Shown here: piece after piece, positions 15,482 through 48,474 of the stretch | How the letters are laid out: each line of letters opens with the position of its first letter | Position numbering within the stretch: position 1 is the stretch's first letter | Source of the DNA: Octopus vulgaris | Taxonomy: Eukaryota | Length of the DNA stretch: 64,000 nucleotides | Reading direction: 5' to 3' | NCBI GenBank assembly: GCA_951406725.2 | Contig: OX597815.1 | Location: 134,354,001-134,418,000, forward strand | Translations under genes and position numbers: made by a program | The notes under the pieces: model-generated | What the model saw: the letters and a program-made list of their open reading frames with translations, nothing else | Databases searched by the model: none | What the model was told of the DNA's origin: nothing

Positions 15482-17400
15482 TTAAAGATTAAATAAAATT
15501 TGTCTTAAATGGTTTCACTATATCTCCTAATTTTAAAGCATTTCAAATCTAGAACTTCCCTTCATCATCATTTTAACATCCACCAGTCCTTACTCGCAAG
15601 CGTCAGATGGAACTTGTTGAGTCAGATTTCTTACAGTTTGGTTCTATTGTTGTTGTCTAACCTTAAGTCAGTATTGACCAAACAGAACTTTGATTAAAGG
15701 TTTTCTATCCATGACCACCTCATCTTTTATATTTATGCATAATGTATTTATGACTAACTTATCCAACATGTCTCCAACCCTCACCTTTTTCTAAGTCAAT
15801 ATTTCCCCATGACCAGACATATTTTCACAGAAGATTGGAAACAAAGGACACTGCTTGCATGACAGTGACACTTATTTACAACTGTCATACAATGTTAAAG
15901 AAAGATGACAGTAACACACACACTTCAGCATGGCTGCAGTCAGATGACTGAAACAAGTAACAGAGTAATACACAACACACACACACACACACACAACAAA
16001 CTTCTTTCAGTTTCCAGCTATCAAATCCACCTACAAGGCTTTAGTTGGCCCAGGGTTATAATAGAAGACACTTGCCTAAAGTGCCATGCAGTGAGACTAA
16101 ACCTAAAACCATGTGGTTGGCAAGCAAACTTCTTTATAAACAAATATTAATTTTTTAAGTGAGCAGATGATAAATAATACCACTTATGCAAATGCGTTAA
16201 GCAATGGTCACTATAACTGCCTCCCCTATCCATCTCTATCTACCTTTCCTTAACCCCATCATTCTCTGCTAAATATTGTATCCTAAACATATCTCTTTCT
16301 CTCTTCACCTTTCCCTTCTGCTAACTTTTTAACCACGTAATAAGTATTCCTTTCCTACCCCACTGCATATCATTAACACTTCTCTTTCCCCACTTTTCTC
16401 TCATTCTTAGCCTCTACCTTCAGCTGACCATGAGACACATTTGGCCTAAGTGTACTATTTCTTTACTTCTCCCTCCCCTTCTCTCACTAAAGTATAACAG
16501 GTGAACAAACAAGCAGATTATTATATAGAAAAAAAAACATTCTAGCGGGGTTGTTGCCAGTGCCGCTGGACTGGCTCCTGTGCAGGTGGCACATAAAAAG
16601 CACCATTTGAGTGTGGCCGTTGCCAGTACCACCTAACTGGCCCTCGTGCAGGTGGCACGTAAAAGCATCCACTGCACTCTCGGAGTGGTTGGCATTAGGA
16701 AGGGCATCCAGCTGTAGAAACTCTGCCAGATCAGATTGGAGTCTGGTGCAGCCATCTGGTTCGCCAGACCTCAGTCAAATCGTCCAACCCATGCTAGCAT
16801 GGAAAGCGGACGTTAAACGACGATAATGATGATGATATAGATTCAACCTTTTGCCAAATTTTTGCAGGAAAGTGTTGCATATCAAACACTGATGACGAAT
16901 GACCAGGTCTACGTATTTATGCCACCTCTCAATAAAAAGTTACAGAGAATGATCTTCAACTCAAAAGAAATCATAATCATTAGGTATGGGACCTCAGAAC
17001 CAATAAAGACATCCTCCCTGATCAAATTCCCACCTGAATACTGAAGGAATAGTGTGTGGAACTGGCCATGCCCCTGTGATCCCTATTTCCCTTGTGCTTT
17101 ACTGGAGCTGCTTTTCCAAACCAATGGAAGATTGCCTCTATAACTCCTAAATATATGAGAGACTCTATATCTGATCTATTTCGTGATGTAGCCTATAGCC
17201 ACAAATGACTGTAAGGCTATAGGCTAAACAAGCAATTCATTTATAAAAATTCATTCAGCTTATGACCAAACATGTTATAACGTGATAGACTGTATACAGC
17301 AAGGAATGAAGCCAAATGATTTATATAGATTTTTTAAAGTGTACATTTACAACAGTAATAAGCAAGTGAGATTTGGAGTGCAGAAAAGAGAAAAAAATAC

Positions 17401-17762
17401 TTGGCTCCAGCAGCTTCAAATAAGTTTGCCCATTCTCTAGCATTGAAAAATTCCGTGGTAAATTTCGGCGCAAAATCTGCATAAGTAAAGTCAGGAGGAT
17501 AATTCTTGTTCATAAAATCAACATAATAAGGGTTTTTACTTCCTTTCCAGTACCACCAAAACCACTCGGAACCATAGCTCGGTACGGAGAAAACGCCCCA
17601 GTGAAGAAATATACCAAACTTCGCCTCGTCGTACCATGAAGGAATAATTCTTTTATCAAGAGATTCCCAGTTAGGTTGATATTCGGCATCAGTTTGTTGT
17701 AAAAGAAGAGAGAGTAGAAACAACAAATACAGCCCACACATCCTTGCCGCAGTCGCCATCAT
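17401..17762 (-). CDS. FUCA: Alpha-L-fucosidase (GH29) coding exon 1 (signal peptide and N-terminus)
   Basis: Encodes [81 protein letters not shown] donor at 17400-17399. 362 nt, ends in phase 2. Confidence 0.97.
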
Positions 17763-25039: not shown

Positions 25040-25089
25040 AACAAAAAAGAAACAAAAAAGATGAAACAATTGATAAAATATTATTTATT
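25040..25089 (-). terminator. Candidate polyadenylation signal of the BAK-like gene
   Basis: AATAAA on the minus strand at 25089-25084, followed by a GT/T-rich tract (about 25060-25040), about 730 nt after the stop codon. Confidence 0.45.
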
Positions 25090-25813
25090 ATAACATGGAA
25101 TACTTTACACTTTTATATAAGTTTGAAATGAAATTTTATTACTATTATTGAAATTACAATAGTTAGGCAGTCTCCGGCTATTTGATAAATCAATTTGTTT
25201 TTGTTTTAATTTCTTGTTGAAATATAAATGGAATGAATTTTAAGACAATGTAAAGACATATATAATGAGTTAAAGTAACATAAAGTGATATATAATTTCA
25301 CAAATGAAAAGCAGACTACGGATAGCTTCTAACCATCTAGAGAGGAAAGTTGAAAAACCTTTATATATTCCAGGTACAATGACCCAATTTTCAGAAAGAT
25401 AGAGTCAAAGAAATGTGTCAATGAAGACTCTGCTATTTGAATAGCTGAATGGGCTGTAACCTCGTTTCAGTCCAGTGATTGTGCTAACAGTAGCTGACAC
25501 AAGTGTTGTTGGCAATGATGATAAACAACATTGTAGTAGCTGGTGATGGCATTGGTGGTATATGTCCTTTTAGCAGTCATTGACAAGGTGGTGGCTGATA
25601 ATAGCAGCAATAAAAAGTATTATATAATACATTTTAAGATGAAATAAACCGAGATATGAATTTAAAAGATTATATGGTATAAACTTGATTTACATTATAA
25701 TAAAACTAATATATTTATTCCACCCAATTCAGTTTTTTTTTTAAATGTGCAATATAAAATATAATTATGATTTTAAAAACAGAATATCACATTAGAACTC
25801 TAATGAATTTTGT

Positions 25814-25909
25814 CTATGATTTTCTCCACACCAAAAAGCCAGCTATTACTGCAGTAGCTACACCTGCAACCATAATCCATTTCTTAGTTGGTTTTTGAAC
25901 AAGTGCAGT
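25814..25909 (-). CDS. BAK1: BAK-like protein last coding exon (C-terminal transmembrane anchor)
   Basis: ttttgcag|ACT..TCA TAG. Encodes TALVQKPTKKWIMVAGVATAVIAGFLVWRKS*, a hydrophobic helix flanked by basic residues. Joined CDS is 531 nt (176 aa plus stop). Confidence 0.88.
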   Translation of the reverse strand, partial: TALVQKPTKKWIMVAGVATAVIAGFLVWRKS

Positions 25910-26284
25910 CTGCAAAATTTGAAAGAGAAATTAATTTTAATTATCATTATAAGCAAGAATATATAATTATGTTTGGATAGTATAAAGTAATTTTAGTTTG
26001 AGATGCTGGTGCCACATAAAAAGCACTCAGCTCATTCTGCTGGATGGTTGGAAGGGCATCCACTCGTAAAAACCCTGCCAAAACAGACACAGAAGTCTGG
26101 TGCAGTCTCCTACCTGGCCAGCTCCTGTCAAACTGTCCAACCAAAGCCAGCATGGAAGACAGACATTAAATAACAACGACGATGGCGGTGATGACGACGA
26201 CAATAGGATGAAGTAGAAAAAATTGCCTCTTCATGTAGATCTTAAGTTGTCATTTAGCCTTAGGCCAGCCTTGGAGTACCATAA

Positions 26285-26621
26285 CTGGTATTCCATGCTG
26301 CATCTATTTTAGCAATCCAGACTCTATGCAGTAACTCAACTTATAAGCAACAGAAAGTAAATCTGCCTCAAACCACACATTATTTATATATATAAAAAAA
26401 TTAAAATAAAAACAAAACATAAAATAATGTAGTTCAGGTAGACTGTCTGAAGAGGAAAAAGACTTGTCATCTTTTTAATGTTATTGAACTTAGGTATGAT
26501 ATTGTTTGAGGCAGATTTAGCTGCTATTGCTCATAGGCTGAGTAACTGCATGGAGTCTGGATTGCTGGTCAAGCAGTTCTCTTTAATGAAATACTGAAAC
26601 AGATGCAGCATGGAATACCAG
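26285..26621. repeat. Long foldback (inverted repeat) in the last intron of the BAK-like gene
   Basis: Perfect 21-bp outer arms CTGGTATTCCATGCTGCATCT / AGATGCAGCATGGAATACCAG. Inner arms agcaatccagactc..../..gagtctggattgct and taaatctgcctcaaac/gtttgaggcagattta. Confidence 0.85.
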
Positions 26622-27252
26622 ATCAATAGGTATTGAATTAAAAAATGCTATATGCATTTTATTTTGAATTTATTTCAATTCATAACCATACATAAAGCAA
26701 TACTTGTACTTATGAGGCAATATACCCCCTCATGAAGAAACACCCACTTATACCCAATGGCGATGCAATATTCCTATTCATGAGGCAGTTTTATCAGCAA
26801 TCAGAAAGTGAAGATTACAAAAACTTTTGCACATGAAGTAAATATAGTCATAATTTAAAATTATTAAAACATTTAGAACTTTAAGCCTCCAGGAAAGTTA
26901 GCCAGTATTTCATTAGTTTGTAGCACTAAACTCACATCCTCCTATAGACAAACTCCTGCCAATCTCAGTTAATGAGGAATTGGGTGTGATATAGAGAATG
27001 CTGAAGACTGCACCTTACTTCTAAATTCTACAATATTTCTAAAACACTCACAGTAGACTTGCTGAGGTCTTTCTGCTGAAAGTAGACTATAAAAATCAAT
27101 CCTAAAACTGAGTAAATTCTATAATGAGTACAAACATAGACAATGATTATAATTGATTTGGAAGTTCACTATATTAAAAAGATAGAGGTAGAGACAATGA
27201 AGCTAGATTTGAAATTATTTATCAGTTTAGCAATAATGTAAAATAAACTTAC

Positions 27253-27415
27253 CCATCCACCTTGATTATGTATCCATCGTGCAAGACTAATTCCCACAAA
27301 ATTCGTAATACACTTCAGAATTATTTGAAATATTTGTTTCGTAAATCGTTTTAGCAGATAGTATGCAAAGCAGAACACTACCAGTATTCTTCCTAGATTT
27401 GAGCACTTAATTAGG
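27253..27415 (-). CDS. BAK1: BAK-like protein coding exon 3 (BH1 and BH2)
   Basis: ataaag|C CTA..GGA TGG|gtaagt. Encodes LIKCSNLGRILVVFCFAYYLL...ARWIHNQGGW. The phase-0 intron directly after GGW is typical of the Bcl-2 family. Confidence 0.88.
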
Positions 27416-29364
27416 CTTTATGGGAAGATGAAAATAGAGAAAATATTATATCAGAATTTCATTTGATATATAACTTTTTAAAAGTAAAAAAAAAAAAAAG
27501 TAATTTTATGATAGATATTTTATTCCTCCTGCCTCTTGTAATGACTGCATTTTGAGGAATAAATAAAATGGTTCAAACTTTATGGATAACCTTGATATAT
27601 TTAAAATCATATTCTATAAACTTAGTAAGTGGTACAATCACTAGCTATGTTGAAAATTTCTGAAATGTCTTGATAGTGGTAAACAAATATTTTGTAGTAT
27701 CAAAATTGTATTTTTATAGAAAATGAAGGCAAAAAAATCAGGTTAAAAAAGATATTCCCAACAGTGTTCTCCAACTAATTCAAGCAAACCATAGTAGATT
27801 GATAAGCAAATGTTTGTAGATTTATCAACTAGCAGACTTGGTCAGCAGCAGTAATGGATCTTAATGTAGCAATGTTAAAACAATAGCGGTGGAGTTTAAA
27901 CTATCCATCTGTAGATTTTTGAAGTTACTACCCTTCTCTCTAGATATAATAGTGATTTCTTTTGACCAGGAGCAAGAAGCAAGAACAATTTTTACAGGAG
28001 AGTGACAATAATCAGTTTAATAATCCTATTTTAATAATGGTACAATAGTAATGGAATGTTTTGAACAACATTTCTATATTGCTCAGATGGAGTAAATACT
28101 ACACAAGGTTTCCTTTTAATTTGAAAGCACTAGTTTAGGTCTTTTTTTTTTACTCATATAAAAAGGAAAGATATAGGCTAAAGCATACATACACACACAC
28201 ACATATGCACTCACACACACATGCATTTCACCCCCACACAGTTCATCTTCCATCTTTGAAATTTTATTTTCATAACATTTGTCAACCAAAGGTTATGGTA
28301 GAAGATACTTGCTTTTCCTCATCCCACTCCAGATTCCATATTGTGGATTGAACCTAGAACCATATAGCTGTAATATATGCCCATTTACAACATTACAATT
28401 ACTTGAACTCATTGATTTCTTTTGTTTAATTAAAAGATCCTAGTGGAAGCATAATGGCATTGTGAGGCTTTCATGCTTTTAACATGTGCATTTATTGTAT
28501 AAATGAAGAGAAATAGTTTTGAGTAGAGAATGAAACTTCATAGTAACTGTAAGAGGTAGACAATAATTTCTTAACCAAGAATCGAAACCTCAGTTTTCAT
28601 ATTTGCTTCCACTGTTCTTGGAACTTGTACTTAGAATTTATTTGTTTAGCCTGTTATACTTGCCACTGTCTTAGGTGATACAGAGTTTAGTTTAGATAGG
28701 TGCGTTCAGTTTTAATGTCAGTGACCTAGTTCAACTTGGACACAAGTGTAAATTTGAGATACCTTTGAAAAATATTCTCTTTCCTCTGCAACTTCAAGAC
28801 AGTTTACTTCTGTCATTTATGGCAATCTCACATGAAACTTGCATCATTTACCTTCCTCCTTCCACATAAATTTAGTGGCAAACTGATTTAAGCACTGGAC
28901 AACAGATTCTCAACCAAGATTGATTGTCATCCACTAAACAATTTCTGGAATTTCTTTCCAACTTGTCATAGTTGTGTAACTACATAATGGTTGAGTAAAA
29001 TCTCTATGTTACCACTAACTCATGATGAGTTATGTAACTGTTACTTAACTTTTCTTGTTGGGAATATATCTCTTACTATATACATCTCTTTGCTGCAATC
29101 ACCAAAACATTTTTTTCTTTTTGGTCCAACCTATAACAGCATGACAAAGTAGGTGTTAACTAGTGATGAGCAAATCTATATCCAAACCCTATAAACTATC
29201 TCACATCTGAACTCTACAATAGCTAAAGTTTTCCACAAGCAAATGACTATATATGTATATACTAACCAGAATACATATTTTCTAATGATTTAATAGCAGT
29301 TATAGAATATTTGAAATAGTACTGGGGAAAAAGGCAAGTCTTTTTATAGAAAATATTAATAGGA

Positions 29365-29700
29365 GCAGGTGTGACTGTGTGATAAGAAGCTTACTTCCTA
29401 ACCACATGATTCCAGGTTCAGTCCAATTGTGTGGCACCTTGGTGAAGTGTTATCTAATATAGCCTCAGGCCTTGTGAGCAGATTTGGTAGACAGAAAACT
29501 GAAAGAACCCGTCATATGTCTGTGTTTGTCCCCCTGCCATTGCTTGACGACTGGTGCTGGTGTGTTTATGAGACCAATAGAATAAGTACTAGGCTAACAT
29601 AAAATAAGTCCTGAGGTCAATTTCTTTGACTAAAACCCTTCAAGGTGGTGCTCTAGCATGGCCACTGTCAAATGACTGAAACAAATAAAAGAATAAAGAA
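29365..29700 (+). mobile_element. Family-A SINE ending within a few nt of the BH3-exon splice donor
   Basis: Tail gactgaaacaaataaaagaataaagaa abuts taaacttac (donor at 29709). Confidence 0.8.
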
Positions 29701-29709
29701 TAAACTTAC

Positions 29710-29850
29710 TCAACAATGTTTATAAACTGTACAACTAATGAATCACTGTTTATATTTAATAGATTAGCCATAAGCTCAAATCTTTCTCGATGTTCCTCAT
29801 ACACTTTATCTCCAATTTCAGCCAGCTGATTCCCAACTAATACACAGTTT
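29710..29850 (-). CDS. BAK1: BAK-like protein coding exon 2 (BH3)
   Basis: ttgcag|A AAC..GTT GA|gtaagt. Encodes NCVLVGNQLAEIGDKVYEEHRERFELMANLLNINSDSLVVQFINIV. BH3 LAEIGD resembles BAK VGRQLAIIGD. 141 nt, phase 2 to 2. Confidence 0.88.
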
Positions 29851-31246
29851 CTGCAAAATACAAATGATTTTTGAAAGTTAAGTTGATAAATAAATAAATA
29901 AATGAATAAGTAAAAAGATAAAAAAGAAAGAACTTTTCATATAAAGATTCACTGTTGTGTGATATTTAGTATTAAGAAGAAACTAAAGTGAATTATTCCA
30001 AATATAATAATAATCCTTTCTATTATAGACACAAGGCCTGAAACTTGGGGAAGGGGAATAATTGATTACATCGACCCTAATACTCAACTGGCACTTAATT
30101 TATCGACCCTGAAAGGATGAAAGGTAAAGTTGATCTCAGCGGAATTTGAACTCAGTATGTAGCGACAGGTGAAATACCGTCGCTACATAAACACTTCATC
30201 CATACTGTAGTATAACCGTTAAACACTTCATCCATTGTGCTAACAATTCTGCCAGCTCACCGCCTTTCCAAATATAATAATAATGCAGACAAAAAATGTG
30301 AACATTGCCAATGAAAAGATGGACAAGATAATAAAATGCATCAAGTATATGAATTAAACTAAGTAACTACTCACTTGAAATGATTATTCTACCCAAAGTC
30401 ATATTATCACCAATTTTAACATGTACACGCATATGTACTACAAGCACTGCTACCAGGCTTCATCACAACTGCCATTCTCTAAACCAGAGCCATCTTAAGG
30501 CAGGGACCTCATGGGTCCAGGGGTTCAGTTCTGATCTATATATGTTACTGCATACATAAATCAGAACTGGATTTCTGGACCCAAATGCATATGTAACATT
30601 TGCTTTCCAGAATTGGATATTACAGATTAACAAATTAAATCCATAGACAACCATTCCTCATATCACATCTGTAATCTCTATGATAGATTATATAGTTCAC
30701 TTAGGCTGGTAAGCAATGAATTAAGGGAGTTTTGGCTGAAATTTCTTGCAGGTTGAGCAACTGCTTTGAAGTTCCTTCATTGGCTAGAAAAGAGAATTGT
30801 TTTGAGTATGGTGCTTTATGTAATAACAGATTCTATAGTAAGTACATGCAAAGAATCTAATTGTTAGTTTACAAACACTCATCTACCATTAAATACATCT
30901 GGAGAAATATGTGACACTACATGCTAGATATGTGTAAATTTTGAAGATTAGTTTGAATGGAAAATACTTGGGTATTTTAATAAGAGAGACCAAAAAAGGA
31001 GTGATATAAATACAAATGTGAGAAATTTTAAGAAAAAAGCTCAACAATCCACCAATAAGGAAATGTTGGCTGACTAATCTGATGTTTGTTAAAGTTTTTA
31101 CAAGCAAAACATCTACTATTGCAAAGTTCAAGTTGACAGAGTGTACAGCTTAGAGATCGCTCCAGGTTAAAATGCTACTTCTCTGCATTACCCAAAGTCA
31201 GGAAATTTTCAGCACCACCTCGCGTAATATAATACACACACACACT

Positions 31247-32321
31247 CAGGGGTTGGACAAAATAATGGAAACACCTTAAAATTTCAAACAAATTTATTTT
31301 AATATGGGGTAGGACTGCCTTTGGCAGAAATTACAACTTGAATTCTATGAGGTATGGATTCATACAAAGTTTGACTTGTTTCCAAAGGAATTTTTGTCCA
31401 TTCTTCAGCTAAAACAGTCTTCAGTTCTTGTAGTGATAATGGTGGAGGATATTGACTCCTTACTTGTTTTTCTAAAAAGTACCATAAATGTTCAATAATA
31501 TTGAGATCTGGGGACTGTGGTGGCCAGATAAGATGTTCAACTTCTCTAGAATGTTCCTTGTGCCATTCAGTAACAACTTTAGCTGTGTGATTTGGTGCAT
31601 TATCATCCTGAAAGATTGCGTTTCCCTCTGGAAACAATTCCACAACCATAGGATGAATTTGATCAGATAAAATGCTTAAATAGTCTTGACTATTAATTCT
31701 GCCATGAAGGGAAACCATTGGGCCAGCGGATTTCCAAGATATAGCACCCCCATATCACCACTAATCCTTCTCCATGTTTAACAGTTAGAAGAAGGCAGTC
31801 TGGGTCAAATGTTTCTTTTGACTGTCTCCACATGTATACTTGGCCAGTGGTCAGAAATAAGGAAACGGATGACTCGTCCAAGAAAATAATATCCTTCCAC
31901 TGCTCTAGGGACAAATTCTGTAGGTTTTTACTCCACTGTAAAAGCTTTGCAACGTTTGTTATAGGAAGTAGTAGTTTTCTGATTGCAGCCCTCCCATGAA
32001 GTCTGGCTTTGTGCAGCTCCCAGTGAACAGTTTTTGTGGTACACCAAACATTTTGGCTGTTTCCATTATGCTAGTGCCTGCCATACAAGCACCAACAATT
32101 TGGCCTCTTTGAAAGTCCAATAGATCTGTCATTTTAATGAATTTTAATTACCTTTTACTGATGATATCTAAAAATAAAGAGCAATTTTAGAAAAACATAT
32201 TAAGCAACACTAATAATAAATAAAAAAACATAAAAATAAACAAGCTTTTGATGGTTTATAGATATTCCAAAATTATGAATACTATGATGGTAGGCGTTTC
32301 CATTATTTTGTCCAACCCGTG
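31247..32321 (-). mobile_element. Tc1-like transposon (internally deleted, DD34E remnants)
   Basis: TIR caggggttggacaaaataatggaaacacct / aggcgtttccattattttgtccaacccgtg|TA. Motifs FLDES, QDDNAPNH, WPPQSPDLNIIEHLW. Confidence 0.9.
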
Positions 32322-33931
32322 TATGTATACATATATATATATATATAATTCTGATCTGGCAATGTTTTTACAGCTGGATGCTCTTCCTAATGCCAACCAC
32401 TCCGAGAGTGTTGTGGTTACTTTTTATGTGCCAGCAGTACCGGAGCCAGTCAGGTGGGCCTGGCATTGATCATGTTCAGATAGTGCTTTTTATATGCCAC
32501 TGGCAAACAAGCCAGTCAGCAGATACTGGCATATACAAGGGGTTGCTGAAAAGTTCCTAGCATTAAGGGCATAACAAAAGGCAGCTGAAGGCCTAAACTT
32601 CTGAGTTCTTTCACAGGGCTTAGAAAAAATGAAGGACAGCTGTATTAAGTGTGTGAATCTGAGAAGGGAATATGTTGAATAAAATTATAATTAACTGATT
32701 CCCCCATATTTTCTTTTACCCAAAGCCATATAGTACCTTAGTGAATCTTCTAACAGTAACTCCATATCCTACATCTCTAATACATCAGAAAACTAAACAA
32801 ATTTGACTATGAACCAAACATTCCACTCAATATTTTACTCAGCAATTTTCCCAACACTTTAAAGATTCTTTTAGCCCTCGACCTTATAAACCTTCTTTAT
32901 AATATTTTCAAGTTGTTTACTTTCTGAATCATTTGTTAGATTTAATAGTGACTTGAAATACAAGCTTTTTGAACAATACAACAGAACAATGAAACAAACA
33001 GCTAGCAGCAGGCATGCAGTGTTAGTTAACACATAATATAAGAACATGCAAACAGACATACCTGGATACCTGGCACCTTGCTGTACTCAAGAAGACCTGT
33101 ACTCTACAGCAGGAGTGTTAAGGCTGCTCCTCCAGATGAAGAGGAATGACCTGTAAGAATCCTGTGCCAGTGCCACATAAAAAGCACTCATGCTGGTGTC
33201 ACATTAGAGTACTTGTACAGTGCCACATAAAAGCACCCAGCACACTTTGTAAAGTGGTTAGTGTTAGAAAGGGCATCCAGCTATAGAAACGATGTCAAAC
33301 CAGATTGGAGCCTGGTGCAGCTCTCCAGCTTACCAGCTCTGGTCAAACCATCCAACCTATGCCAGCATGGACAATGCATATTAAATGATGATGATGACAT
33401 AAGATTGGTCAGTATACTAGAGCAAAGACCCCCACCCCCATCAAAACTGTGCATAAATTAGAAACCATTATTATTTTTATCATGGATTTATAGCAATTGA
33501 AATAAAGATAAGCTGAATTCATTTGGAATGAAGATGATCCCAATCAGACCAAATAAGTGGACTGATAATGTTAGTAAATAAGATTTACTATAGATATATA
33601 ATTCAGATTTGAAATTTTTGTTGATAAAGTTTGTTTTTTTCTGTTAAAAAATATACAAAATAGGAGCAGTCATGGATGTAAGGTAAGAAGTTTGTTTCTC
33701 AACCACACACACATACAAAGACATATACATAGATATATACATGTGTGCACCCCCACCCTACAGACCAAAGCCTAGTGAGTGGATTTGGTAGATGAAAACT
33801 GAAAGAGGCCCACCATGTATGTGTGTGTATCATCATCATTATCACCATTTAACATCCATTTACCATGCTATATATATATATATATACATTTATATATATG
33901 GGGAGGGACAGTCCACACACATATGTATATA

Positions 33932-35296
33932 CAGTTGCGGCCAAAATGATCAGAACGGTTGCTTTTACTCCGTGTTTTAGTATATTTAATCAGCGAACTC
34001 TTATATTTTGAATTTGTTTACGTGACAGTTCGTTTACTAAACATTAGTAAGAATATTTGCAGTGTACTTAGTTAATATAATGCCACTTACTCCGTTACCA
34101 ATTCGTCAGCATTTTATTAGGCTTTGAAGGAAGGACAATTTAAGTATTGGATCTATTGCAAAGATTGTTAACAAGTCAAAAAGTGTTGTACACGGTATTC
34201 TTAAGGTCTACGATGATTGTAGTTCGTGTGAAGCAAGAAAGTTTACAGGTAGGCCAAGAAAAACGACCAAGAGAGAAGATCGTGCTATGGTAAAGTTGGT
34301 TAAAAAGGACAGATTTAAAACTGCTGCTGCTGTTTCTCAGAAAATGAGCATTGTCTCGTTGTTTAGTTGAACATGACCTACAAGCAAGAGCACCTGCAGT
34401 GAAGCCACTGATCAGCTCCAAGAATAAAAAGTGTCGTCTTATCTTTGCAACCGAACATGTGTTGTGGTCTCAAGAAAAATGGCAAACGGTGCATTTCAGT
34501 GATGAATCTAAGTTTATGCTATTTGGCTCAGATGGGAAAAGTAGGTGAAAAATTGTTGCCTAAATGCCTTAAGACTATTGTTAAATTCGGTGGAGGAAGT
34601 GTCATGGTTTGGGGAATGATATCTGGAGATGGTGTGGGCCCTTTGGTGCGATTACATGGAAAGTTAAATGCAGGAGTTTATAAACAACTTGTAAAAGATC
34701 ATGTCTTGCCTGTGCTGAGAAATTCAACTAAGCGACCACCCATATTCATGCAGGACAATGCCCCATGTCACAAGGCTAAGGTGGGCATGAACTTCCTCAA
34801 GGCTGAAAAGGTTATTGTTATGGATTGGCCAGCTCAAAGCCCAGATCTCAATCCTATTGAAAATGTGTGGAATATTCTAGGAGAACGTTCGAAAGCCAGA
34901 AATCCTAAAACAACTGAGCAATTATGGAATGCCCTTCAGGAAGAATGGAATAAGATCACCCAGCAAGAAATTGAAAATTTAATTTCCTCATGCAGTTGAA
35001 GATGTCAGAGTGTGATTGAAGCTAAAGGGCTTCGCACTAAATATTAAATAATTCCAGTATTCTGTCATTTTTGATTATTTTGTTATTTTTTGGCCGCCAT
35101 GGGTTTTGCAGTAAATCACTAAATCATCCATAACTTTTGTATTATCTTCTCAAATTACACCAAAACCTCAAACAATAAAAAATAATATTGTATTTATTGT
35201 CTGTGAAAATTATAGAATATAAAACAACTTTGATAAAAACTTATACCTACTTTTCTGACGAAAACAATGCCGTTCTGAACATTTTGGCCGCAACTG
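33932..35296 (+). mobile_element. Tc1-like transposon with both TIRs, TA TSD and a disrupted transposase
   Basis: TA|CAGTTGCGGCCAAAATG...CATTTTGGCCGCAACTG|TA. Motifs FSDESKF, QDNAPCH and SPDLNPIENVW are split by frameshifts. Confidence 0.92.
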
Positions 35297-35594
35297 TATC
35301 TATGTGTATGTGTCTTTGTGTGTGTGTGTATGTGTTTGTCCCTCGCCACCACTTGATAACCAGTGTTGGTTTGTTTACATCCCCACAACTAAACAGTTTA
35401 GAAAAAGAGACCAATAGACTAAGTACCAGGCTTTAAAAATAATTACTGTGGTTGATTTGTTTGATCAAAAGCCTTCAAGGCAGTGCCCCAACATGCATTT
35501 CTACATCCAGATATTCTTTCTGACTGAAACAAGTAAAAGATAAAAGCTGGAATATACTAAATAGTTCCTTCATGGAGAAACATAGTGGACTTAC

Positions 35595-35725
35595 GCATCA
35601 ACTTCATCCTTAGAAATAATATCCTTGGCTTCAGAACGAATTTCCTCATTTTCTAACCTTGCTTTCTCCTGGACAAAACCTAGAAATACAGCTTTAGCCT
35701 CCTGAGCAATCAATGCGTAAGTCAT
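35595..35725 (-). CDS. BAK1: BAK-like Bcl-2 family protein, coding exon 1 (helix 1)
   Basis: ATG at 35725 with an in-frame TAA two codons upstream. Acceptor ttcag at 35779. Encodes MTYALIAQEAKAVFLGFVQEKARLENEEIRSEAKDIISKDEVD, ends GC|gtaagt, phase 2. Confidence 0.8.
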
Positions 35726-36449
35726 ACTTTATTTCCTGTGTTTCTAAAGATTTTTCAAATTCAAAGACCAAATATTCTCTGAAATGAAACATAAATAAAT
35801 AATTAGTAAGGATATGAATTTGAAGCAACAAATTATTAAAGTAATATTATTCTTTTAATCATATTTTCTACTCCAATACTTTTAAGGCAAATGATCTACA
35901 TATTAGAAAACTGAAGTAATTGTAAATCATTGGCATTGGCAGTGCCATTATTACTAAGTGCTGATCTCTAACTGTGGAGGGAAGACATGGAATGAGGTGG
36001 TGAAGCATTATCTTTGAATGTTGGGCCACATGGAGGCAATGACTAGTGACTGAGATCTTTGGTGATATGCCGTATTTGAGAAGACCGGTTAAACCAAGTG
36101 AAATCATAGTTGTGGATGATGCTGGAGTCACGAAACTGACACCCGTGCTGGTGGCATGTAAAAAGAACCATTTGAACATTGGGCCTCATGGAGGCAATGT
36201 GGCCAATACTGGTGTCACATATGGAGGCAATAAGATCAATGCTGGTGTCATGTAACTGGTACCCATGCTGGTGGCATGTAAAAGCACCAATTACACTCTT
36301 GGAGTGGTTGGCATTAGGAAGGGCATCAAGCCATAGAAACCATGCTAAATCAAACTGGAGTCTGGTGCAGCCCCTCAGCTTACCAGCCCTAGTCAAGCCA
36401 TCCAACCCATGCCAGTATGGACAACAGACGTTAAATGATGATAATGATG

Positions 36450-38546: not shown

Positions 38547-38650
38547 ATGGCAGTTGTTTCAGCGTTACTTGTGTAATCTTTTTCATTTACTATAAATGAA
38601 AGAAACAGGATGTTTAATGCGGCGTACAGATTTCTTGATTCCTGGATCAA
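38547..38650 (-). other. Probable non-coding first exon (5' UTR) of the BAK-like gene; upstream boundary approximate
   Basis: Strong donor CCAT|gtaagt at 38546. A CpG-containing (GC/CA)n stretch lies just upstream. The next acceptor at 35779 leads into the ATG exon. Confidence 0.45.
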
Positions 38651-41699: not shown

Positions 41700-44293
41700 C
41701 TAATAGGTGGTTTGTGCACGTTGGGGTGATGATTCTGTGGGTGTTGTCACTAATGCAGCAGGTGTTGTACACGTTGTCCTCGACAGCTCTGGTGTTGGGC
41801 GGATGTGGGCCCTGTTGCGTCTCAGCTGCCTACCAGATTCCGTTTCTATTATATATGATCTTGGAGTTTCATCTCTACCGACAACCTGTGCTGGGATCCA
41901 TGTTTTAGTTATGGGAACTTGAGTATGCACATGTTGTCCTCCAAGTATCTCAGGTAAATATTGTGCATGTTTGTTGTAATACCTCTGTGATTGTTCTTGA
42001 GTGGCTGCTAGCTTTGCCCTTGTCTCTTCCTGGTCAATAGGAGGTTGGATCTTAGTTGGCAGAGTAGTTTTGTACTTCCTGCCATTTAGCAATTCTGCTG
42101 GGGATTTCATATCAGCTCTCAGTGGTGTCGCTCGTAGGGACAGAAGTGCCAGGTGTGGGTCTTCCTTAGTCTCTCGGCATTTGACTAATGTTCTCTTCAC
42201 TGTCTGCACCTGTCTTTCTATAAACCCATGGCCTTTGGGGTAGTGTGGAGATGAAGTTGTAATATTGAACCCATACTCATCGGCTAGCTTTTTGAATTCT
42301 TGTGATGTGAACTGGGTTCCATTGTCACATATGATCTGCTCTGGTATTCCTTGCTCTGCTAGGAGTCCTCGAGCCACTGTAGTGATTGTTTTGGCTGTCA
42401 GGTCTTTCACTTTTCTCACAAATGGAAATTTGGAGTAGTAGCAGGCCATTATTAAATACCATTCTTGGCCCTCTGTGAATAGATCTACTCCAATAGTTTG
42501 CCATGGCCTTCTTGGGATGTCACTAGATATCATTTCTTCCTTTTGTTGTGAGGTTCTGTACTTTTGACAGATGTGGCATGTAGAAACTATCTTTTCTATG
42601 TCTTTGTACATACCTACCCAATATACTGCTGACTTGGCTCGGAGCTTGCATTTCTCCATTCCGAGATGCCCTTGGTGGATCTTGTCAAGAATATCTTGTT
42701 GCATTGACTTGGATATAATTATTTGGGATCCAGCCATCAGGATTCCATTCTCCACTGATATATCACCATGGATGGCCCAATATTCACGAATCAGGGGTTG
42801 CACCTGATGTCTCTTTTCTGGCCACCCCTGAATCACCATCTGAGTAAGGAGCTGAAGTTCTTCATCTTTGCTGGTCTCCTCTTTGATTTCCGCTAGCTTT
42901 GTGGTTGTCACATTTACAATGTGGTGGACCTTTATGCTTAGTCCTTCCATCTCCTGTTTATCATGTGAGGATAGTCTGGAAAGAGCATCCGCCAATATCA
43001 TGTCTTTTCCTGGCTTGTACCTGATATCATAGTCATATGTTTGAAGCCTTAACAGTAATCTTTGCAGTCTGGCTGGTGCTTTCATGAGGTTTTTTCTATG
43101 TATTTGTTCTAGCGGGCGATGGTCTGTTTCTATATTGAAATCTCTGCCATACAGGTATGTATGGAACTTTTCGCATCCATATACTACTGCCAGGAGTTCC
43201 CTTTCAATATTCGCGTACCTTGTCTCTGTGGGTGAGAGAGCTTTCGAGGCATATGCAATAGGTTTACCTTCCTGTATCAGTGCTGCGCCAACTCCTCTCA
43301 TAGAAACATCGACTTGGAGTGTTACTGGTTTGCGTCTGTCATAGTATTGCAGAGTTGTCTCCTTACTGATGAGCTTTTTGATTGCGTTGAAATCCTGTGT
43401 GTGTGAAGCACACCAATCAAACTCTACGTCATCTTTGTTTAGTTCTCGGAGATTTGCAGTGTGATCGGCCAGCTTGGGTATGAAGGCTCCCATGTAGTTG
43501 ATGAGTCCCAGGAAGCTCCTGAGTTCCTTCCTGTCTTTAGGATCTTTAATGTCTCTGATGGCTTCCACTTTAGCGGGGTCTGGCTTAACTCCCTCTGCAG
43601 AGTATATAATTCCAAAGAATTTGCACTCCTTTTCCTTTATTATACACTTTCTGCATTGAGTTTGATGCCTGCTTGTCGGGTTTTCTCCATAGCTTCATGT
43701 AAATTGAAGTCATGTGTAGTCTCATCCTTGCCATGCACTTGGATGTCATCTGCTATTCCAATTGCTCCCTTGCAGCCTTGGTATGTCTCATCTATTTTGT
43801 GCTGGAAAACATCTTGGCTCACCTTCAATCCAAATGGGAGTCGGTTGAACCGATATCTGCCAAATGGTGTGTTGGAGGTAGTGAGCATGGATGACTCTTT
43901 GTCTATTTTTATATTCCAGTACCCATTGCTGGCATCCAGTTTACTGAATATTTTGGATCCAGCCAATGATGGTGTGATTTCTTCAAGGGTTGGAAATGGA
44001 TGGTACTCCCTTTTTAATGCCTTGTTCAAGTCCCTTGGGTCGAGGCATATCCGTAGGGTACCATTGGGTTTTTCCTTGATCACAATTGAATTTACCCTGT
44101 CTGTTGGTCGTGTCACTTTGGTGATTATTTCCTTTTTGTCCAACTCTGTCTTCAGCTTCTCTTTTAGTTCTAGAGGGATGCGGCGAGGTGGGTGAACAAT
44201 TGGTTTGATATTGGGGTCGACTGTTATATGATATCGACATTTCACAAAGTACCCGACTGTATCGTCAAAGCATTCAGGGTACATGCTTATCAT
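41700..44293 (-). pseudogene. Gypsy pol (RT 43640-44293; RNase H and integrase 41700-43568), frameshifted, protease absent
   Basis: RT motifs LDASNGYW, RLPFGL, IADDI. RNase H motifs LQVDVS, ERELLA, TDHRPL. Integrase motifs HQGH..CHIC, GVDLF, CDNGTQF, GFIER. Confidence 0.92.
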
Positions 44294-44350
44294 TTCCTCT
44301 TCTATTTCTGCTCCTCTTTGAAAATTGGGGCTTGTATCTCTGGGATTTTG

Positions 44351-45085
44351 TTACCCTACACATTTTTCCCAGTGGTTAAGTTTTCCACATGTTTTGCAGT
44401 GTGTACCGAATGCAGGACATTTTTCCCGGTTATTAAATTCATGCTCTGTATCACAGTACTGGCATGTTCTTTGTTTGTGGGTATGTGTCCTGTGCCTAGA
44501 TACAGCATCTACACTGCTACCTAGTGAGCTTGTTTGTAAGCTAAGTGAGGCCATCTGTTTTGTTGTGGCTTCGAATGCTCTTGCAGTGTCTACTGCTTCT
44601 ACCAACTGGAGAGCGTCCTTACCTATTAGTGATTTTTGTACTTCTTTGTGGGCACACCCCCATATTATTTGGTCTACAATTCTCTCCTCCCTGTCTTTGA
44701 ATTTGCATTTCTCTGCAACATTTTTCAGTCTTGACAGGAAATTGTCAATTGTTTCTTGTGGGTCTTGTTTCAGGCCCTGGAATTCGTATCTGTGAATTCT
44801 ATGGTTCGACCTGGGCTCTAGGTGCCTTTCAAATTTCTCAAGAAGTGTGTCTGGGTTATTGCAGTCCGATTCTGACATATCCCAGCTATTGAATTGGTCT
44901 ATTCCTTTATTACCTGACCATAAAAGGATATAGCTTACCTTCTCATCGTCAGTTGTGCCTTTCAGGAAACTTTTGAAAGCTAGTTGGGTTTTCTGTTTAA
45001 ACTTTTTAGATGCTTCCAAAATATCATCGGAGTCCCAATTCATAATCGGATGTAGATTCCGCTGTACGGCGACGGGGGTCGCCAT
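44351..45085 (-). CDS. Gypsy gag with two CCHC-type zinc knuckles
   Basis: QDPQETIDNFLSRL capsid motif. C-terminal CQYCDTEH..CPAFGTHCKTCGKLNHWEKC. Confidence 0.85.
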   Translation of the reverse strand: MATPVAVQRNLHPIMNWDSDDILEASKKFKQKTQLAFKSFLKGTTDDEKVSYILLWSGNKGIDQFNSWDMSESDCNNPDTLLEKFERHLEPRSNHRIHRYEFQGLKQDPQETIDNFLSRLKNVAEKCKFKDREERIVDQIIWGCAHKEVQKSLIGKDALQLVEAVDTARAFEATTKQMASLSLQTSSLGSSVDAVSRHRTHTHKQRTCQYCDTEHEFNNREKCPAFGTHCKTCGKLNHWEKCVG

Positions 45086-45196
45086 CTTGGATCGTCGTGT
45101 TTGTTATCCTAAGACGAAGCGATGTTTTGTTTGTTAATTTCCTGGTTCGTTGCGTTTCTGATTTGTTGTAAAGGCACAGTTTCCGTTTAATTATTT

Positions 45197-45209: not shown

Positions 45210-45426
45210 TGTTATGTGTAGTTTGGGTTCTCATGGGATAGACAACCAATTGAAAACCATTGTTATTGTTACGTATTTATTTACTTTTCATGATACACGG
45301 ACACGACATTCAGCGTAGTAATACATTATATACTTTACACACAGTTGTACTGTTCACTAACAAAATAGTGCCAAGAGTGGGGATGTAGTTTGGCATACGC
45401 AAACACATAGATATGAATGTGTAACA
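45210..45426 (-). repeat. Gypsy 5' LTR (217 bp)
   Basis: Direct repeat of 41216-41431, followed on the minus strand by the PBS. Confidence 0.95.
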
Positions 45427-45639
45427 TAACAAACTACGTTCCAAACACATGGTCCTGGGTTCAGTCCCACTGTGTGGTGACTTGGCATGTGTCTTCTGCT
45501 GTAGCCTCAGACCAACAAAAGCCTTCTCAGTGGATTTTGTACATATATACAGGCATACATACATATATATACATGCATACGTATATATTCGGCATAAACA
45601 CTCTACCACTACAACTAATAACTGTTGGGAACACTTTCA

Positions 45640-48474
45640 AACCTGCCTTACATTCGAACCGGAATCTCAACGCCCGAGTTTTCCATCTGAAGTTAATCTC
45701 TCTCTCATGGAGCTCATACAAAAAGGGCAAGTCTTTGGGCCCATACAATGTGACATCTACACAATCGAGTGGAAAAAAAGGGGCCTTCCACATGCTCATA
45801 TCCTGCTTTGGCTCTCAGCGAAGATCAATTCCAATGACATCGACAACATAATCTCTGCAGAGCTTCCTGATTCAGCTTTAGACAAAGAACTATACGAAAT
45901 AGTTAAAGCAAACATGGTACATGGTCCATGTGGGCGTGGATTCAACATAAACTCACCATGCTTGAAGGACAGCATATGTTCAAAAAGATTTCCAAGGAGG
46001 TTCCTACAAGAAACTCAGACAGGTGCTGATGGGTATCCATCATACAGACGTAGAAAACCAGAAGACGGAGGTTTCACAGCAACTATCGGACAGCACAATA
46101 TTGATAATATATGGATTGTTCCATACTGCCCACTCCTGTCAAAGACTTTCAATGACCACATCAGCGTTGAGTTTTGCAACTCCAATAAATCCATCAAGTA
46201 CGTTTGCAAATATGTAAACAAGGGTTCTGACGCTGCAATGTTTGGACGGTACATAAGTAGCAACGAGGCTTTCTGGCGCATCTTTGGCTTTCCAATTCAA
46301 CAACGACACCGCGCCATTCAACAGCTTGCAGTGCACCTGGAAAATGGTCAAAGAGTGTACTTCACCGATGCTAATGCTTCTCTGTTGGCAGAGGAACCAA
46401 GGGATAGCACACTCACTGCCTTCTTCAAGCTTTGTCAAGTGGATCCATTCGCTCAAACCTTGCTGTTTCCACAGATTCCATCGTACTACACTTGGAATGG
46501 AAAAAAATGGGCCCCACGGAAATCAGGTCAAAATGTTCATGGATACCCTGGCATTAAGTTTCACACTTGCCTTGGGCGAGTATACACAGTGCATCCCACT
46601 CAACAAGAGTGCTTCTACCTTCGTCTACTGCATGAGATCAGAGGGCCAACGTCTTTCCAGGCCCTAAAAACCGTTCATGGACATGTCTGCACAACATACA
46701 GAGAAGCCTGCTATCGACAAGGTCTGTTAGAAGATGGTGCACAATGGGGTGCAACTTTAGGAGAGGCTGCTTTATCACAATCACCTAAAGGTCTCAGGGC
46801 ACTATTTGCAGTATTACTACAGGTATGCGAACTGTGTGATCCGGTCACTCTATGGCTCAAATATAGAGACAACGTGGCTGAAGACCTTCAGCGCCAAGCT
46901 CAACTGCTCTATCCTGACATGGAGAGTATCAGCAATGAAATCTATAACAAAACACTCATTGACATTGAAGACAGAATTGCTAAACTGGGTAGAAATGAAT
47001 TGTCGACGTATGGCCTGCCACAAGCATTCAGGTCAGGGTTAAATAGCCTTCCCACTGCTGTCATTCGTGAAACAACCTACGACACTCAAGCGCTTTCAAA
47101 GTACATTGTTGAAAATGAGCCTAAATTACTTCCGGACCAGCTGCAGGCCTACAGAACTATTCTTAACAATGTACGCCAACGCGAGGGACGAATCTTCTTC
47201 CTCGATGCTCCTGGAGGGACAGGAAAAACATTTATTACAAAGCTTCTCCTTGCAGAAGTTAGGCAGCATCAGGACATTGCAGTAGCTGTAGCCTCCTCTG
47301 GCATTGCAGCTACTTTGTTACCCGGTGACAGGACAGCACACTCAACTTTTAAACTCCCTCTCAACTTAGCAGCATCCGAAATTCCTTCATGCAATATTAA
47401 CAAAAGCTCAGATCAGGGACAAGTACTTAAAATATGTCATCTAATTGTCTGGGATGAGTGCACTATGACTCACAAAGGAGCTTTGGAAGCATTAGATAGA
47501 GCCCTGAAAGACATCCGAGACTGTCAGGCTCCAATGGGAGGTGTAACGCTTCTGTTGTCAGGTGATTTCAAGCAAACTCTTCCTGTCATTCCGAAAGACA
47601 CTAGAGCAGATGAAGTCCAAGCATGCCTGTGGCATCATGTTACAATCCTCAGTCTCACCACTAACATGAGAGCTCAGCTACACGGCGACAAAATGTCCAC
47701 AAAGTTTGCACAGGACATTTTGACACTTGGTGAAGGCAAGATGCCTCTCGATGCTGCAGGACAAATGGAAGTGTGGTCATTTTCCTCTGTTGTTAATTCT
47801 GTAGATGGCCTCAAAAACAAAGTGTTTCCCAACTTCACACAAAACTACCAAAATCACAATTGACTGTGTGAAAGAGCAATATTAGCTCCAAAAACCGTTG
47901 CTGTTAACAAAATTAATCAACAGCTAATGCATTCTCTTCCCGGCACTATACACACTTACAAGTCTGTTGATACAATTCCAGATATAAATGAATTTCTGAA
48001 CTATCCTCCTGAATTTCTCAATTCACTGGAGCCTCCTGGACTACATCCACACATATTAGCACTTAAAGTTGGAACTCCTGTAATGCTAGTCCGCAATCTG
48101 GAACCACCAAGACTTTGCAATGGAACACGACTGGTGATAAAGAAAATGATGTCACACGTTATCGAGGCGATCATTCTTTCTGGATGTGGAAAAGGTGATG
48201 ACGTCTTTATTCCAAGAATTCCTCTTACTCCATCAGGAGCAGAAATTCCATTTACATTCAGAAGAATGCAATTCTCCCTTCGTGTCAGCTTTGCCATGTC
48301 CATTAACAAATATCAGGGTCAAACCCTCTCTGTAGCTGGTTTTCTCTTGTAAGAGCACTGCTTCTCGTATGGGCAACTGTATGTTGGCTAATCAAGAGTA
48401 GGAACCAAAAGAAACCTTTTTGTATATGCTCCACAAGGAAAAACAAGGAACATTGTTTACAACGAGGTGTTATA
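45640..48474 (+). pseudogene. Helitron RepHel (HUH Rep plus PIF1 helicase), N-terminally truncated, with stops
   Basis: Rep motifs IEWKKRGLPHAHILL (HUH) and KYVCKYVNKG (Y2). SF1B/PIF1 motifs DAPGGTGKT, VASSGIAATLL, WDECTM, GDFKQTLPV, FAMSINK.QGQT. Premature stops at 47863, 48352 and later. Confidence 0.92.

What the first reader, a model, noticed from the sequence alone, without database searches (positions are those of the whole stretch)
25814..35725. Divergent BAK-like gene with NLGR replacing the near-invariant BH1 NWGR
Seen: four exons splice in frame (phases 2, 2, 0) to 176 aa with BH3 VGNQLAEIGDKV, BH1 LIKCSNLGRILVVFCF, BH2 WIHNQGGW and a tail anchor ending WRKS. Established: this phase pattern and BH3 match BAK rather than BAX, and the BH1 NWGR motif shapes the BH3-binding groove. 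Inference: a lineage-specific BAK paralogue with no N-terminal extension, a shortened pre-BH1 loop and W-to-L, possibly with altered pore-forming or partner-binding behaviour. The ORF track shows only one exon.
Basis: partly seen in the sequence, partly recalled or inferred. Interest (0 to 1): 0.7.

Follow-up and report, generated by a model that had tools for sequence, protein, structure and literature searches.

The report
Octopus BAK lacking its conserved tryptophan
This is a real, spliced octopus gene for a fast-evolving version of the cell-death protein BAK that has lost a tryptophan kept by almost all its relatives; it likely still helps open mitochondria to kill the cell, but that is untested.

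Summary
Four minus-strand exons (phases 2, 2, 0) give 176 aa, identical to Octopus vulgaris CAI9718231.1, which the database names 'BAX'. Spliced contigs support the junctions in 6 of 6 RNA-like runs laid (all three in 4; the two flanking exon 3 in 2 more), and the Leu codon is in transcripts. Trees, fold and intron positions make it BAK, not BAX: it groups with cuttlefish BAK on a long branch. The Trp loss is real and rare (31 of 32 other BAK-clade rows keep it), but Leu is not fixed: O. bimaculoides has NQGR. Published structures pack this Trp against BH2; the residues known to bind BH3 (Gly, Arg) are kept, as are the BH3 core and tail anchor. Best reading: a fast-evolving, still constrained BAK that likely remains a pore-former, with a remodelled alpha3-alpha4 wall (55%). 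Main rival: a Trichoplax-Bak-like sensitiser (20%). Whether it is a duplicate or Octopus's only BAK could not be tested. No paper cites the accessions. New variant of a known kind; interest 0.35.

The parts
35595..35725 (-). Coding exon 1 (M1 to codon 44): helix alpha1 and the alpha1-alpha2 linker; phase-2 donor
   Evidence: joint 29850-35595 in 4 of 4 runs
35726..35778 (-). 5' UTR part of the same exon; AG acceptor at 35779-35780; in-frame TAA two codons before the ATG
   Evidence: (contigs cover 35595-35778)
29710..29850 (-). Coding exon 2 (codons 44-91): BH3/alpha2, alpha3, alpha4; phase-2 donor
29802..29837 (-). BH3 core V49-V60 (L53, I56, G57, D58 = human BAK L78, I81, G82, D83)
27253..27415 (-). 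Coding exon 3 (codons 91-145): BH1, alpha5, alpha6, BH2; AAG acceptor; phase-0 donor after GGW
   Evidence: (PF00452 E 1.5e-9)
27388..27399 (-). BH1 motif N97-L98-G99-R100; L98 (CTA, 27396-27394) replaces the family tryptophan (human BAK W125)
27253..27276 (-). BH2 motif W138-W145, intact
25814..25909 (-). Coding exon 4 (codons 146-176 + TAG): predicted tail anchor (about residues 154-173, mean hydropathy 1.65) ending in RKS
25083..25813 (-). 3' UTR, continuous with exon 4 in transcript contigs (ends at 25082-25166 in the four runs)
   Evidence: table 8
38547..38620 (-). Likely upstream non-coding exon (donor GTAAGT after 38547) in a CpG-rich stretch; its 5' limit is unknown
   Evidence: inferred from gene model P0004; not covered by the reads laid

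Best explanation
This is an expressed, spliced Octopus gene of the BAK lineage that has lost the BH1 tryptophan and evolves fast, and it likely still works as a tail-anchored mitochondrial pore-forming effector. Shown: gene structure, splicing, BAK ancestry via cephalopod BAK, and loss of W (L in O. vulgaris and O. sinensis, Q in O. bimaculoides). Predicted: the BAK fold. Inferred by analogy with human BAK: the tail anchors it in the mitochondrial outer membrane; a BH3 helix binds the groove through the kept G99 and R100; it opens, exposes its own intact BH3, forms BH3-in-groove dimers and pores; pro-survival Bcl-2 proteins hold it in check through that BH3. Inferred effect of the W loss: the W packs alpha5 on the BH2 end of the bundle, so its loss would loosen the closed form rather than destroy the BH3 contact. 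Together with loss of the equivalents of Y89 and Y108 and a shorter alpha4, this would shift stability and partner choice.
For: Kept in both octopus lineages: G50, L53, A54, I56, G57, D58 (BH3); F68, L75, F86; N97, G99, R100; F107, Y109; W138, I139, G143, G144, W145. G126 and R127 are the residues whose mutation blocks activator binding or oligomerisation of human BAK, and F93 and I114 also matter (PMC3135403 passages); their equivalents G99, R100, F68 and I89 are kept (alignment). The W contacts BH2 (PMC8814693); Bcl-xL W137A destabilises the core without changing secondary structure (second-hand in PMC12388508). AlphaFold2 mean pLDDT is 83, and the first 20 entries of the structural second look are all BAK (best Z 18.6, rmsd 2.5, 148 aligned). 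Constraint: O. vulgaris and O. bimaculoides differ at 12 of 70 motif/core sites against 19 of 48 linker/tail sites (Fisher p=0.01); regions were chosen by me and alpha1 and alpha3-alpha4 were left out of that count. The full splice form is in transcripts.
Against: No functional test exists. The protein keeps only 26 of 44 BAK-conserved columns, the fewest of the 9 rows scored this way (range 26-34). 8 of 13 conserved columns between residues 63 and 98 are changed against 9 of 30 elsewhere (p=0.09, not significant), so the groove wall is remodelled. O. vulgaris and O. sinensis also have Y61 at the position of BAK N86, which pairs with G126 in dimer formation (PMC3135403); O. bimaculoides keeps N. 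A polar Q at the W site in O. bimaculoides suggests relaxed constraint there. A BAK with a damaged BH1 that does not form pores has a precedent (trBak, PMC7527217). The tail helix is modelled at pLDDT under 50 (152-165).
Confidence: 0.55

Rival explanations
1. A BH3-donor sensitiser like Trichoplax trBak. The groove has decayed and it no longer forms pores; it promotes death by giving its intact BH3 to pro-survival Bcl-2 proteins and freeing BAX.
For: The BH3 core is intact while changes gather on alpha3-alpha4 and BH1 (Y89-, Y108- and W125-equivalents, two-residue deletion). trBak has an altered BH1 (ISWRR, PMC8998228) and fails to release cytochrome c but blocks pro-survival proteins (PMC7527217). 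In Bid and Bfk the W position is replaced and the groove is closed (PMC8814693). An O. sinensis model skips exon 3 to give a BH3-only form (P0006).
Against: trBak lost the Gly; this protein keeps N, G and R in all three species, which suggests a working groove. The clustering of changes is not significant (p=0.09). Bid and Bfk lack BH1 altogether. The model matches BAK best.
Confidence: 0.2
2. A redundant duplicate under relaxed selection beside a canonical Octopus BAK; the W loss has no functional meaning and the gene may be decaying.
For: Long stem (1.2-1.3 changes per site). Only 74% identity between two Octopus species. Two different residues at the W site, each 2-3 base changes from TGG. 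BAK-like duplicates occur in molluscs (several Dreissena records on one contig).
Against: The frame is intact in three species, motifs are significantly more conserved than linker and tail (p=0.01), and the transcript is spliced in six runs. No canonical Octopus BAK turned up, though the searches were too insensitive to exclude one (one search missed even P0001).
Confidence: 0.12
3. A converted pro-survival or decoy protein that binds BH3 ligands with its groove (G99, R100 kept) but cannot form pores.
For: G and R are kept while other groove-wall residues changed. The short N-terminus and compact size resemble minimal viral Bcl-2 folds; the Atlas lists poxviral clusters only as leads under 0.9.
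Against: The BH3 keeps the full pro-apoptotic signature (L-x-x-I-G-D). It descends from BAK, not from the pro-survival group.
Confidence: 0.08
4. It is a BAX, as the O. vulgaris and O. sinensis database names say.
For: Database names. Single-sequence phmmer gives human BAX E 3.5e-8 slightly ahead of BAK 2.1e-7.
Against: AU test rejects Octopus+BAX (p=0.001). The O. bimaculoides and Sepia relatives hit BAK first. Fold hits are BAK first. Intron positions fit BAK and not BAX (human exon sizes recalled, not from a call).
Confidence: 0.02

Closest known systems
Sepia (Acanthosepion) pharaonis BAK, CAE1265669.1 (P0067), and unnamed record P0007
   Same: Sister group in both trees (98/94 and 100/98); shared BH3 and alpha5 features; same predicted helix order.
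   Different: Only 34-36% identical. Both keep NWGR, the Y89- and Y108-equivalents and the 41-residue BH3-BH1 spacing. Longer N-terminus (14 or more residues before alpha1 against 6).
Human BAK1 (PDB 2JCN, 7M5C)
   Same: Fold (Z 18.6, rmsd 2.5, 148 aligned); BH3 core, N/G/R of BH1, BH2, tail anchor. Three introns at matching places: 9 codons before the BH3 Leu, just before BH1, after GGW (human positions recalled; an exon 4/5 junction just before BH1 is stated in PMC3288346).
   Different: About 24% identical. W125 to L/Q, Y89 to H/N, Y108 to V, N86 to Y (O. vulgaris and O. sinensis only), two residues fewer at the alpha4 end; no N-terminal extension or its phase-1 intron (recalled).
Trichoplax adhaerens trBak (trBcl-2L4; PMC7527217)
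   Same: BAK-lineage protein with a non-canonical BH1 and an intact BH3.
   Different: trBak keeps W and loses G (ISWRR); this protein loses W and keeps G and R. trBak was tested as a sensitiser; this one is untested.
Octopus bimaculoides BAK isoform X2, XP_014769559.1 (P0005)
   Same: Same gene lineage: 74% identical, same deletion, same short N-terminus, exons map one to one on the window.
   Different: NQGR instead of NLGR; keeps N at the N86 position.
Mammalian N-Bak (PMC3288346)
   Same: A frameshift at the junction before BH1 yields a BH3-only form; the O. sinensis model P0006 does this too.
   Different: N-Bak includes a 20-nt neuronal exon; the octopus model skips exon 3, and that joint was not among the joints shown in my runs.

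Membership tests
Multi-motif Bcl-2 family (PF00452) | Bcl-2 domain above the curated cut-off | tested here: met
   52.4 bits against cut-off 31.4, whole profile 1-100
Multi-motif Bcl-2 family (PF00452) | Helical-bundle Bcl-2 fold | tested here: met
   AlphaFold2 pLDDT 83; Z 18.6 to BAK. The alignment used was mostly canonical BAKs, so the model leans towards that fold.
Multi-motif Bcl-2 family (PF00452) | Phase-0 intron after the BH2 GGW, tail anchor on a separate exon | tested here: met
   a family-wide feature per PMC8998228, so it does not separate BAK from others
BAK subfamily | Descent: inside the BAK clade, not BAX | tested here: met
   BAK clade 99/99 in the 28-row tree and 92/82 in the 52-row tree; AU rejects union with BAX-like rows, p=0.001
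BAK subfamily | BAK-type BH3 (G-x-Q-L-A-x-I-G-D) | tested here: met
   G50, L53, A54, I56, G57, D58 kept; R76-equivalent changed to N/K
BAK subfamily | BH1 Gly and Arg that bind BH3 ligands | tested here: met
   G99, R100 and N97 in all three octopus proteins
BAK subfamily | BH1 tryptophan (canonical NWGR) | tested here: not met
   L or Q against W in 31 of 32 other BAK-clade rows. This is a consensus trait with one other exception (P0030); it makes the protein a variant and does not undo descent.
BAK subfamily | BAK-type positions of the two phase-2 introns | tested here: inconclusive
   Window positions are shown (codons 44 and 91), but the human BAK and BAX exon sizes used for comparison are recalled; no relative's DNA was available
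BAK subfamily | Constitutive mitochondrial outer-membrane anchoring | not testable with these tools
   Hydrophobic tail with basic end is present; localisation untested
BAK subfamily | BH3-in-groove dimers, pores, cytochrome c release | not testable with these tools
   needs cell or liposome assays
BAK subfamily | One-to-one orthology with cuttlefish BAK (versus a duplicate) | tested here: inconclusive
   No genome held; branching among Octopus, P0007 and Sepia is unresolved (AU p=0.44); protein searches too insensitive to exclude a second copy
BAX subfamily | Descent from BAX | tested here: not met
   AU p=0.001
trBak-type sensitiser | Loss of the BH1 glycine | tested here: not met
   G99 kept
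trBak-type sensitiser | No pore formation but neutralises pro-survival proteins | not testable with these tools
   needs BAX/BAK-null cell assays

The most novel reading that the evidence does not exclude
This is the only BAK of Octopus, and it has shed three brakes of the closed state at once: the BH1 tryptophan that clamps alpha5 to BH2, the Y89 gate over the groove, and the Y108 site. The result is a primed effector that opens without an activator and is restrained only by pro-survival partners. That would be a natural experiment showing what the near-invariant W does, and a rewired apoptosis switch in octopods.
Probability: 0.15. Interest if true: 0.65.

Novelty: new variant of a known kind. 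Interest (0 to 1): 0.35.

Why it matters
The BH1 tryptophan is kept in 52 of 54 non-octopus Bcl-2-family rows examined. My searches turned up no single-residue test of it in BAK, only a triple mutant. A natural, expressed BAK that carries L in one octopus lineage and Q in another gives a ready comparison with cuttlefish BAK to ask whether that residue sets the activation threshold. It also corrects a database label ('BAX'). The importance is moderate: the gene is annotated, belongs to a well-studied family, deviations at this motif are known (ORFV125 SPGR in PMC9027176; trBak; P0030), and no altered function has been shown.

Tried and rejected
Own-genome search: no genome is held for this window, so a second BAK or a BAX could not be sought directly.

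Protein searches for a canonical Octopus BAK: (2 hits of 5 candidates; 4 of 68; 12 of 1878) found none. One search missed P0001, P0005 and P0021, which were in its own query alignment, so absence means nothing. One search lists only 50%-cluster representatives, which would hide one.

Complex prediction of two copies of residues 43-118: no answer (score 0.15, mark 0.32, alignment not used). It is not evidence either way.

Run search: no RNA holder listed on record. The runs are 'RNA?' by guess, and the word shares are likely driven by repeats; only the splice joints were used.

Assembly error or allele with TGG: rejected. A-to-I editing cannot turn CTA into TGG; it would give CTG, still Leu (reasoning). 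Other acceptors near exon 3 (27475, 27407, 27394, 27390): not used in the contigs shown. The 232-aa model P0004 joins a Ty3/gypsy gag stretch (45085-44906) to the gene and is rejected as a model artefact.

dN/dS: not computable, as no O. bimaculoides or Sepia DNA was available.

Whether cephalopod and Dreissena BAK-like proteins form a second molluscan BAK clade: grouped at 97/97 in the 28-row tree but not in the 52-row tree. Forcing cephalopods with oyster, scallop and snail BAK alone gave p=0.039; all molluscs together p=0.29. Unresolved, and long-branch pull is possible.

Literature: accession search found 0 papers. Topic searches listed none on this gene. Octopus was not sampled in the Bcl-2 tree of PMC10959488. 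The supplements of PMC8998228 and PMC8282340 gave no hit for this gene. Supplements of PMC8917759 and PMC9389742 were not searched, and subscription papers are outside the library.

The Atlas gave only generic Bcl-2 clusters.
Full report
Observation. The gene lies on the minus strand. It is identical to P0001, the Octopus vulgaris record CAI9718231.1, named 'apoptosis regulator BAX isoform X1'. O. sinensis XP_029657984.1 differs at 3 of 176 sites. O. bimaculoides XP_014769559.1, named BAK, is 74% identical. Pfam PF00452 covers residues 53-145 at 52.4 bits, above the cut-off of 31.4.

Expression. I laid 8 of the 24 listed runs. In one search all three intron-skipping joints appear in 4 of 4 runs (four studies, two organism codes). 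In one search two more RNA-like runs end exactly at both edges of exon 3, with loose ends that read as exons 2 and 4. Of the other two runs, X20 runs through the exon edges as genomic DNA does, and X19 covers only part of the exon. The runs are labelled RNA only by guess, but exact GT-AG skips show spliced transcripts. Exon 3 is identical to the window in X1, X3, X9 and X16. X15 differs once, at 27327 (Q121E). X10 has one difference whose place was not shown. So the Leu codon CTA is transcribed, and A-to-I editing could only make it CTG. The AAG acceptor is used. The first coding exon starts at 35778 and has an in-frame stop two codons before the ATG, so there is no N-terminal extension.

What it is. 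A phmmer scan of 1.84 billion representatives gave 44 hits. The best after the protein itself are two unnamed records, P0007 and P0008 (41% and 43%). P0008 aligns closely with Sepia pharaonis BAK. I built a 52-row tree (5 of 57 rows dropped as near-duplicates or partial: P0008, P0011, P0032, P0045, P0061) and a 28-row tree. Both join the octopus proteins to Sepia BAK and P0007 (98/94; 100/98) inside the BAK clade (92/82; 99/99). The octopus stem is 1.2-1.3 changes per site. A group of five rows whose profile hits human BAX first lies outside, and forcing Octopus into it is rejected (p=0.001). Against this, plain phmmer scores human BAX marginally above BAK, which probably explains the database name. 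The AlphaFold2 model (pLDDT 83) matches BAK first by Foldseek and by the second aligner (first 20 entries BAK, best Z 18.6). The model was built on an alignment of mostly canonical BAKs, so this is not fully independent. The intron positions fit human BAK1 (phase 2 nine codons before the BH3 Leu; phase 2 just before BH1) and not BAX, by exon sizes that I recall and could not fetch. PMC3288346 (passages) confirms a BAK junction just before BH1. The intron after GGW is family-wide (PMC8998228, passages).

The tryptophan. W is present in 52 of 54 non-octopus rows; the exceptions are P0030 (NLGR, unnamed, BAK clade) and a mayfly protein. It is present in 31 of 32 BAK-clade rows and in 9 of 9 named non-octopus molluscan rows. 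These rows were collected with octopus-based queries. O. bimaculoides has NQGR, so the shared trait is loss of W, not gain of L. Published structure work places this W against the BH2 WIxxxGGW core (PMC8814693, section 3.4 read), while G and R make the BH3 contacts (PMC9027176, passages). Bcl-xL W137A destabilises the core but keeps the secondary structure (Feng 2009, seen only as cited in passages of PMC12388508; PDB 3CVA listed in PMC6540150). For BAK I found only the triple mutant W125A/G126E/R127A (PMC2836074, passages).

Pattern of change. Human BAK numbers come from the alignments, anchored on L78, D83 and W125. Kept: L78, I81, G82, D83, F93, L100, F111, I114, N124, G126, R127 and the whole BH2 core. 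Lost in both octopus lineages but kept in Sepia and P0007: R76, Y89, Y108, W125, and two residues at the end of alpha4 (helix 82-90 in the octopus model against 124-135 in the Sepia model). N86 is Y in O. vulgaris and O. sinensis only. D91 falls near S117 by the intron position. S117E blocks human BAK dimers (PMC3506661, passages), but BAX has Asp at the aligned site and the local alignment is ambiguous, so I give this little weight. Overall 26 of 44 conserved columns are kept (one of the 44 is the start Met, an alignment artefact). The excess of change in residues 63-98 is not significant (8 of 13 against 9 of 30; p=0.09). Between the two octopus species, motif and core sites change less than linker and tail (12 of 70 against 19 of 48; p=0.01), which argues for purifying selection.

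Mechanism. The most likely reading (55%) is a BAK effector that still works. G126 and R127, the residues shown to be needed for activator binding or oligomerisation, and the groove residues F93 and I114 (PMC3135403, passages) all have conserved equivalents, as do the BH3 face and the tail. The W loss would weaken the contact between alpha5 and the BH2 end of the bundle. From my own knowledge, that end is the part that detaches when BAK is activated. Y89 blocks the groove of resting BAK, and Y108 has been reported as an inhibitory phosphorylation site. All three losses point towards an easier-to-open protein, but this is inference; relaxed constraint explains them equally simply. The main rival (20%) is a sensitiser like Trichoplax trBak, which does not release cytochrome c but blocks pro-survival proteins (PMC7527217, passages and one section; PMC7022251, passages). 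trBak, however, lost the Gly, which this protein keeps. Relaxed duplicate (12%), decoy (8%) and BAX (2%) follow.

Open point. Orthologue or paralogue cannot be decided. No genome is held, the order of branching among Octopus, P0007 and Sepia is open (p=0.44), and the origin of P0007 is unknown. Cephalopod BAK as a whole is already divergent: Sepia is 27% identical to scallop BAK, while oyster and scallop share 62%. The bobtail squid has both Bak and Bax transcripts (PMC9389742, passages).

Prior knowledge. The protein is in NCBI and UniRef under a generic, and for two species misleading, name. No paper in the library holds any of six accessions, and nine topic searches listed none on this gene. 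PMC10959488 (passages; supplement part 2) did not sample Octopus for Bcl-2. PMC8282340 (passages; supplement search) tested only an octopus BCL-2. PMC8917759 (passages) concerns IAPs. Unread supplements and subscription papers could list the gene. The scan's notes held nothing on this gene. One unchecked note reports a BH3-only candidate elsewhere in this genome, which would supply an upstream trigger.

Verdict. The feature is real, expressed, and unusual at one well-known motif position. It is a variant of BAK rather than a new system, and the functional consequence is unknown. Interest 0.35.

Noticed in passing
exons 29850-29710 and 25909-25814 (model P0006, O. sinensis): A database model skips exon 3, frameshifts in exon 4 and gives a 107-aa BH3-only, tail-less form, reminiscent of mammalian N-Bak. 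The window sequence gives the same product with 3 differences. The skip joint was not among the joints shown (391 not shown).
   Followed up: partly
window 26113-27282: Low-depth contigs in X1 and X3 run from exon 3 into intron 3, matching model P0002, which reads through the GGW donor into a different C-terminus; retained intron or pre-mRNA.
   Followed up: partly
window 31242-32326 and 33915-35313: Two broken Tc1/mariner-type elements with terminal inverted repeats and DDE_3 fragments, in opposite orientation, inside intron 1.
   Followed up: partly
window 17334-17762, minus strand: Alpha-L-fucosidase exon (PF01120, E 3e-41), the downstream neighbour on the same strand; useful as a synteny marker.
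   Followed up: no
window 41700-45103, minus strand: Ty3/gypsy-type retrotransposon (gag, RT, RNase H, integrase). Gene model P0004 wrongly fuses its gag start to the BAK gene.
   Followed up: partly
window 45425-48352 and about 58000-61743, plus strand: Two Helitron-like Rep/PIF1 helicase regions, both broken by stops or frameshifts.
   Followed up: no
protein P0030 (unnamed record): A separate BAK-clade protein also has NLGR, and also Y and H at the N86 and Y89 positions, as in O. vulgaris. It does not group with Octopus. Possible convergence, or a result of searching with the octopus query.
   Followed up: no
   Followed up: partly
window 27278: Run X20 (depth 5.7, one contig) has a difference giving R137Q, next to the BH2 tryptophan; may be an allele, a species difference or an error.
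   Followed up: no
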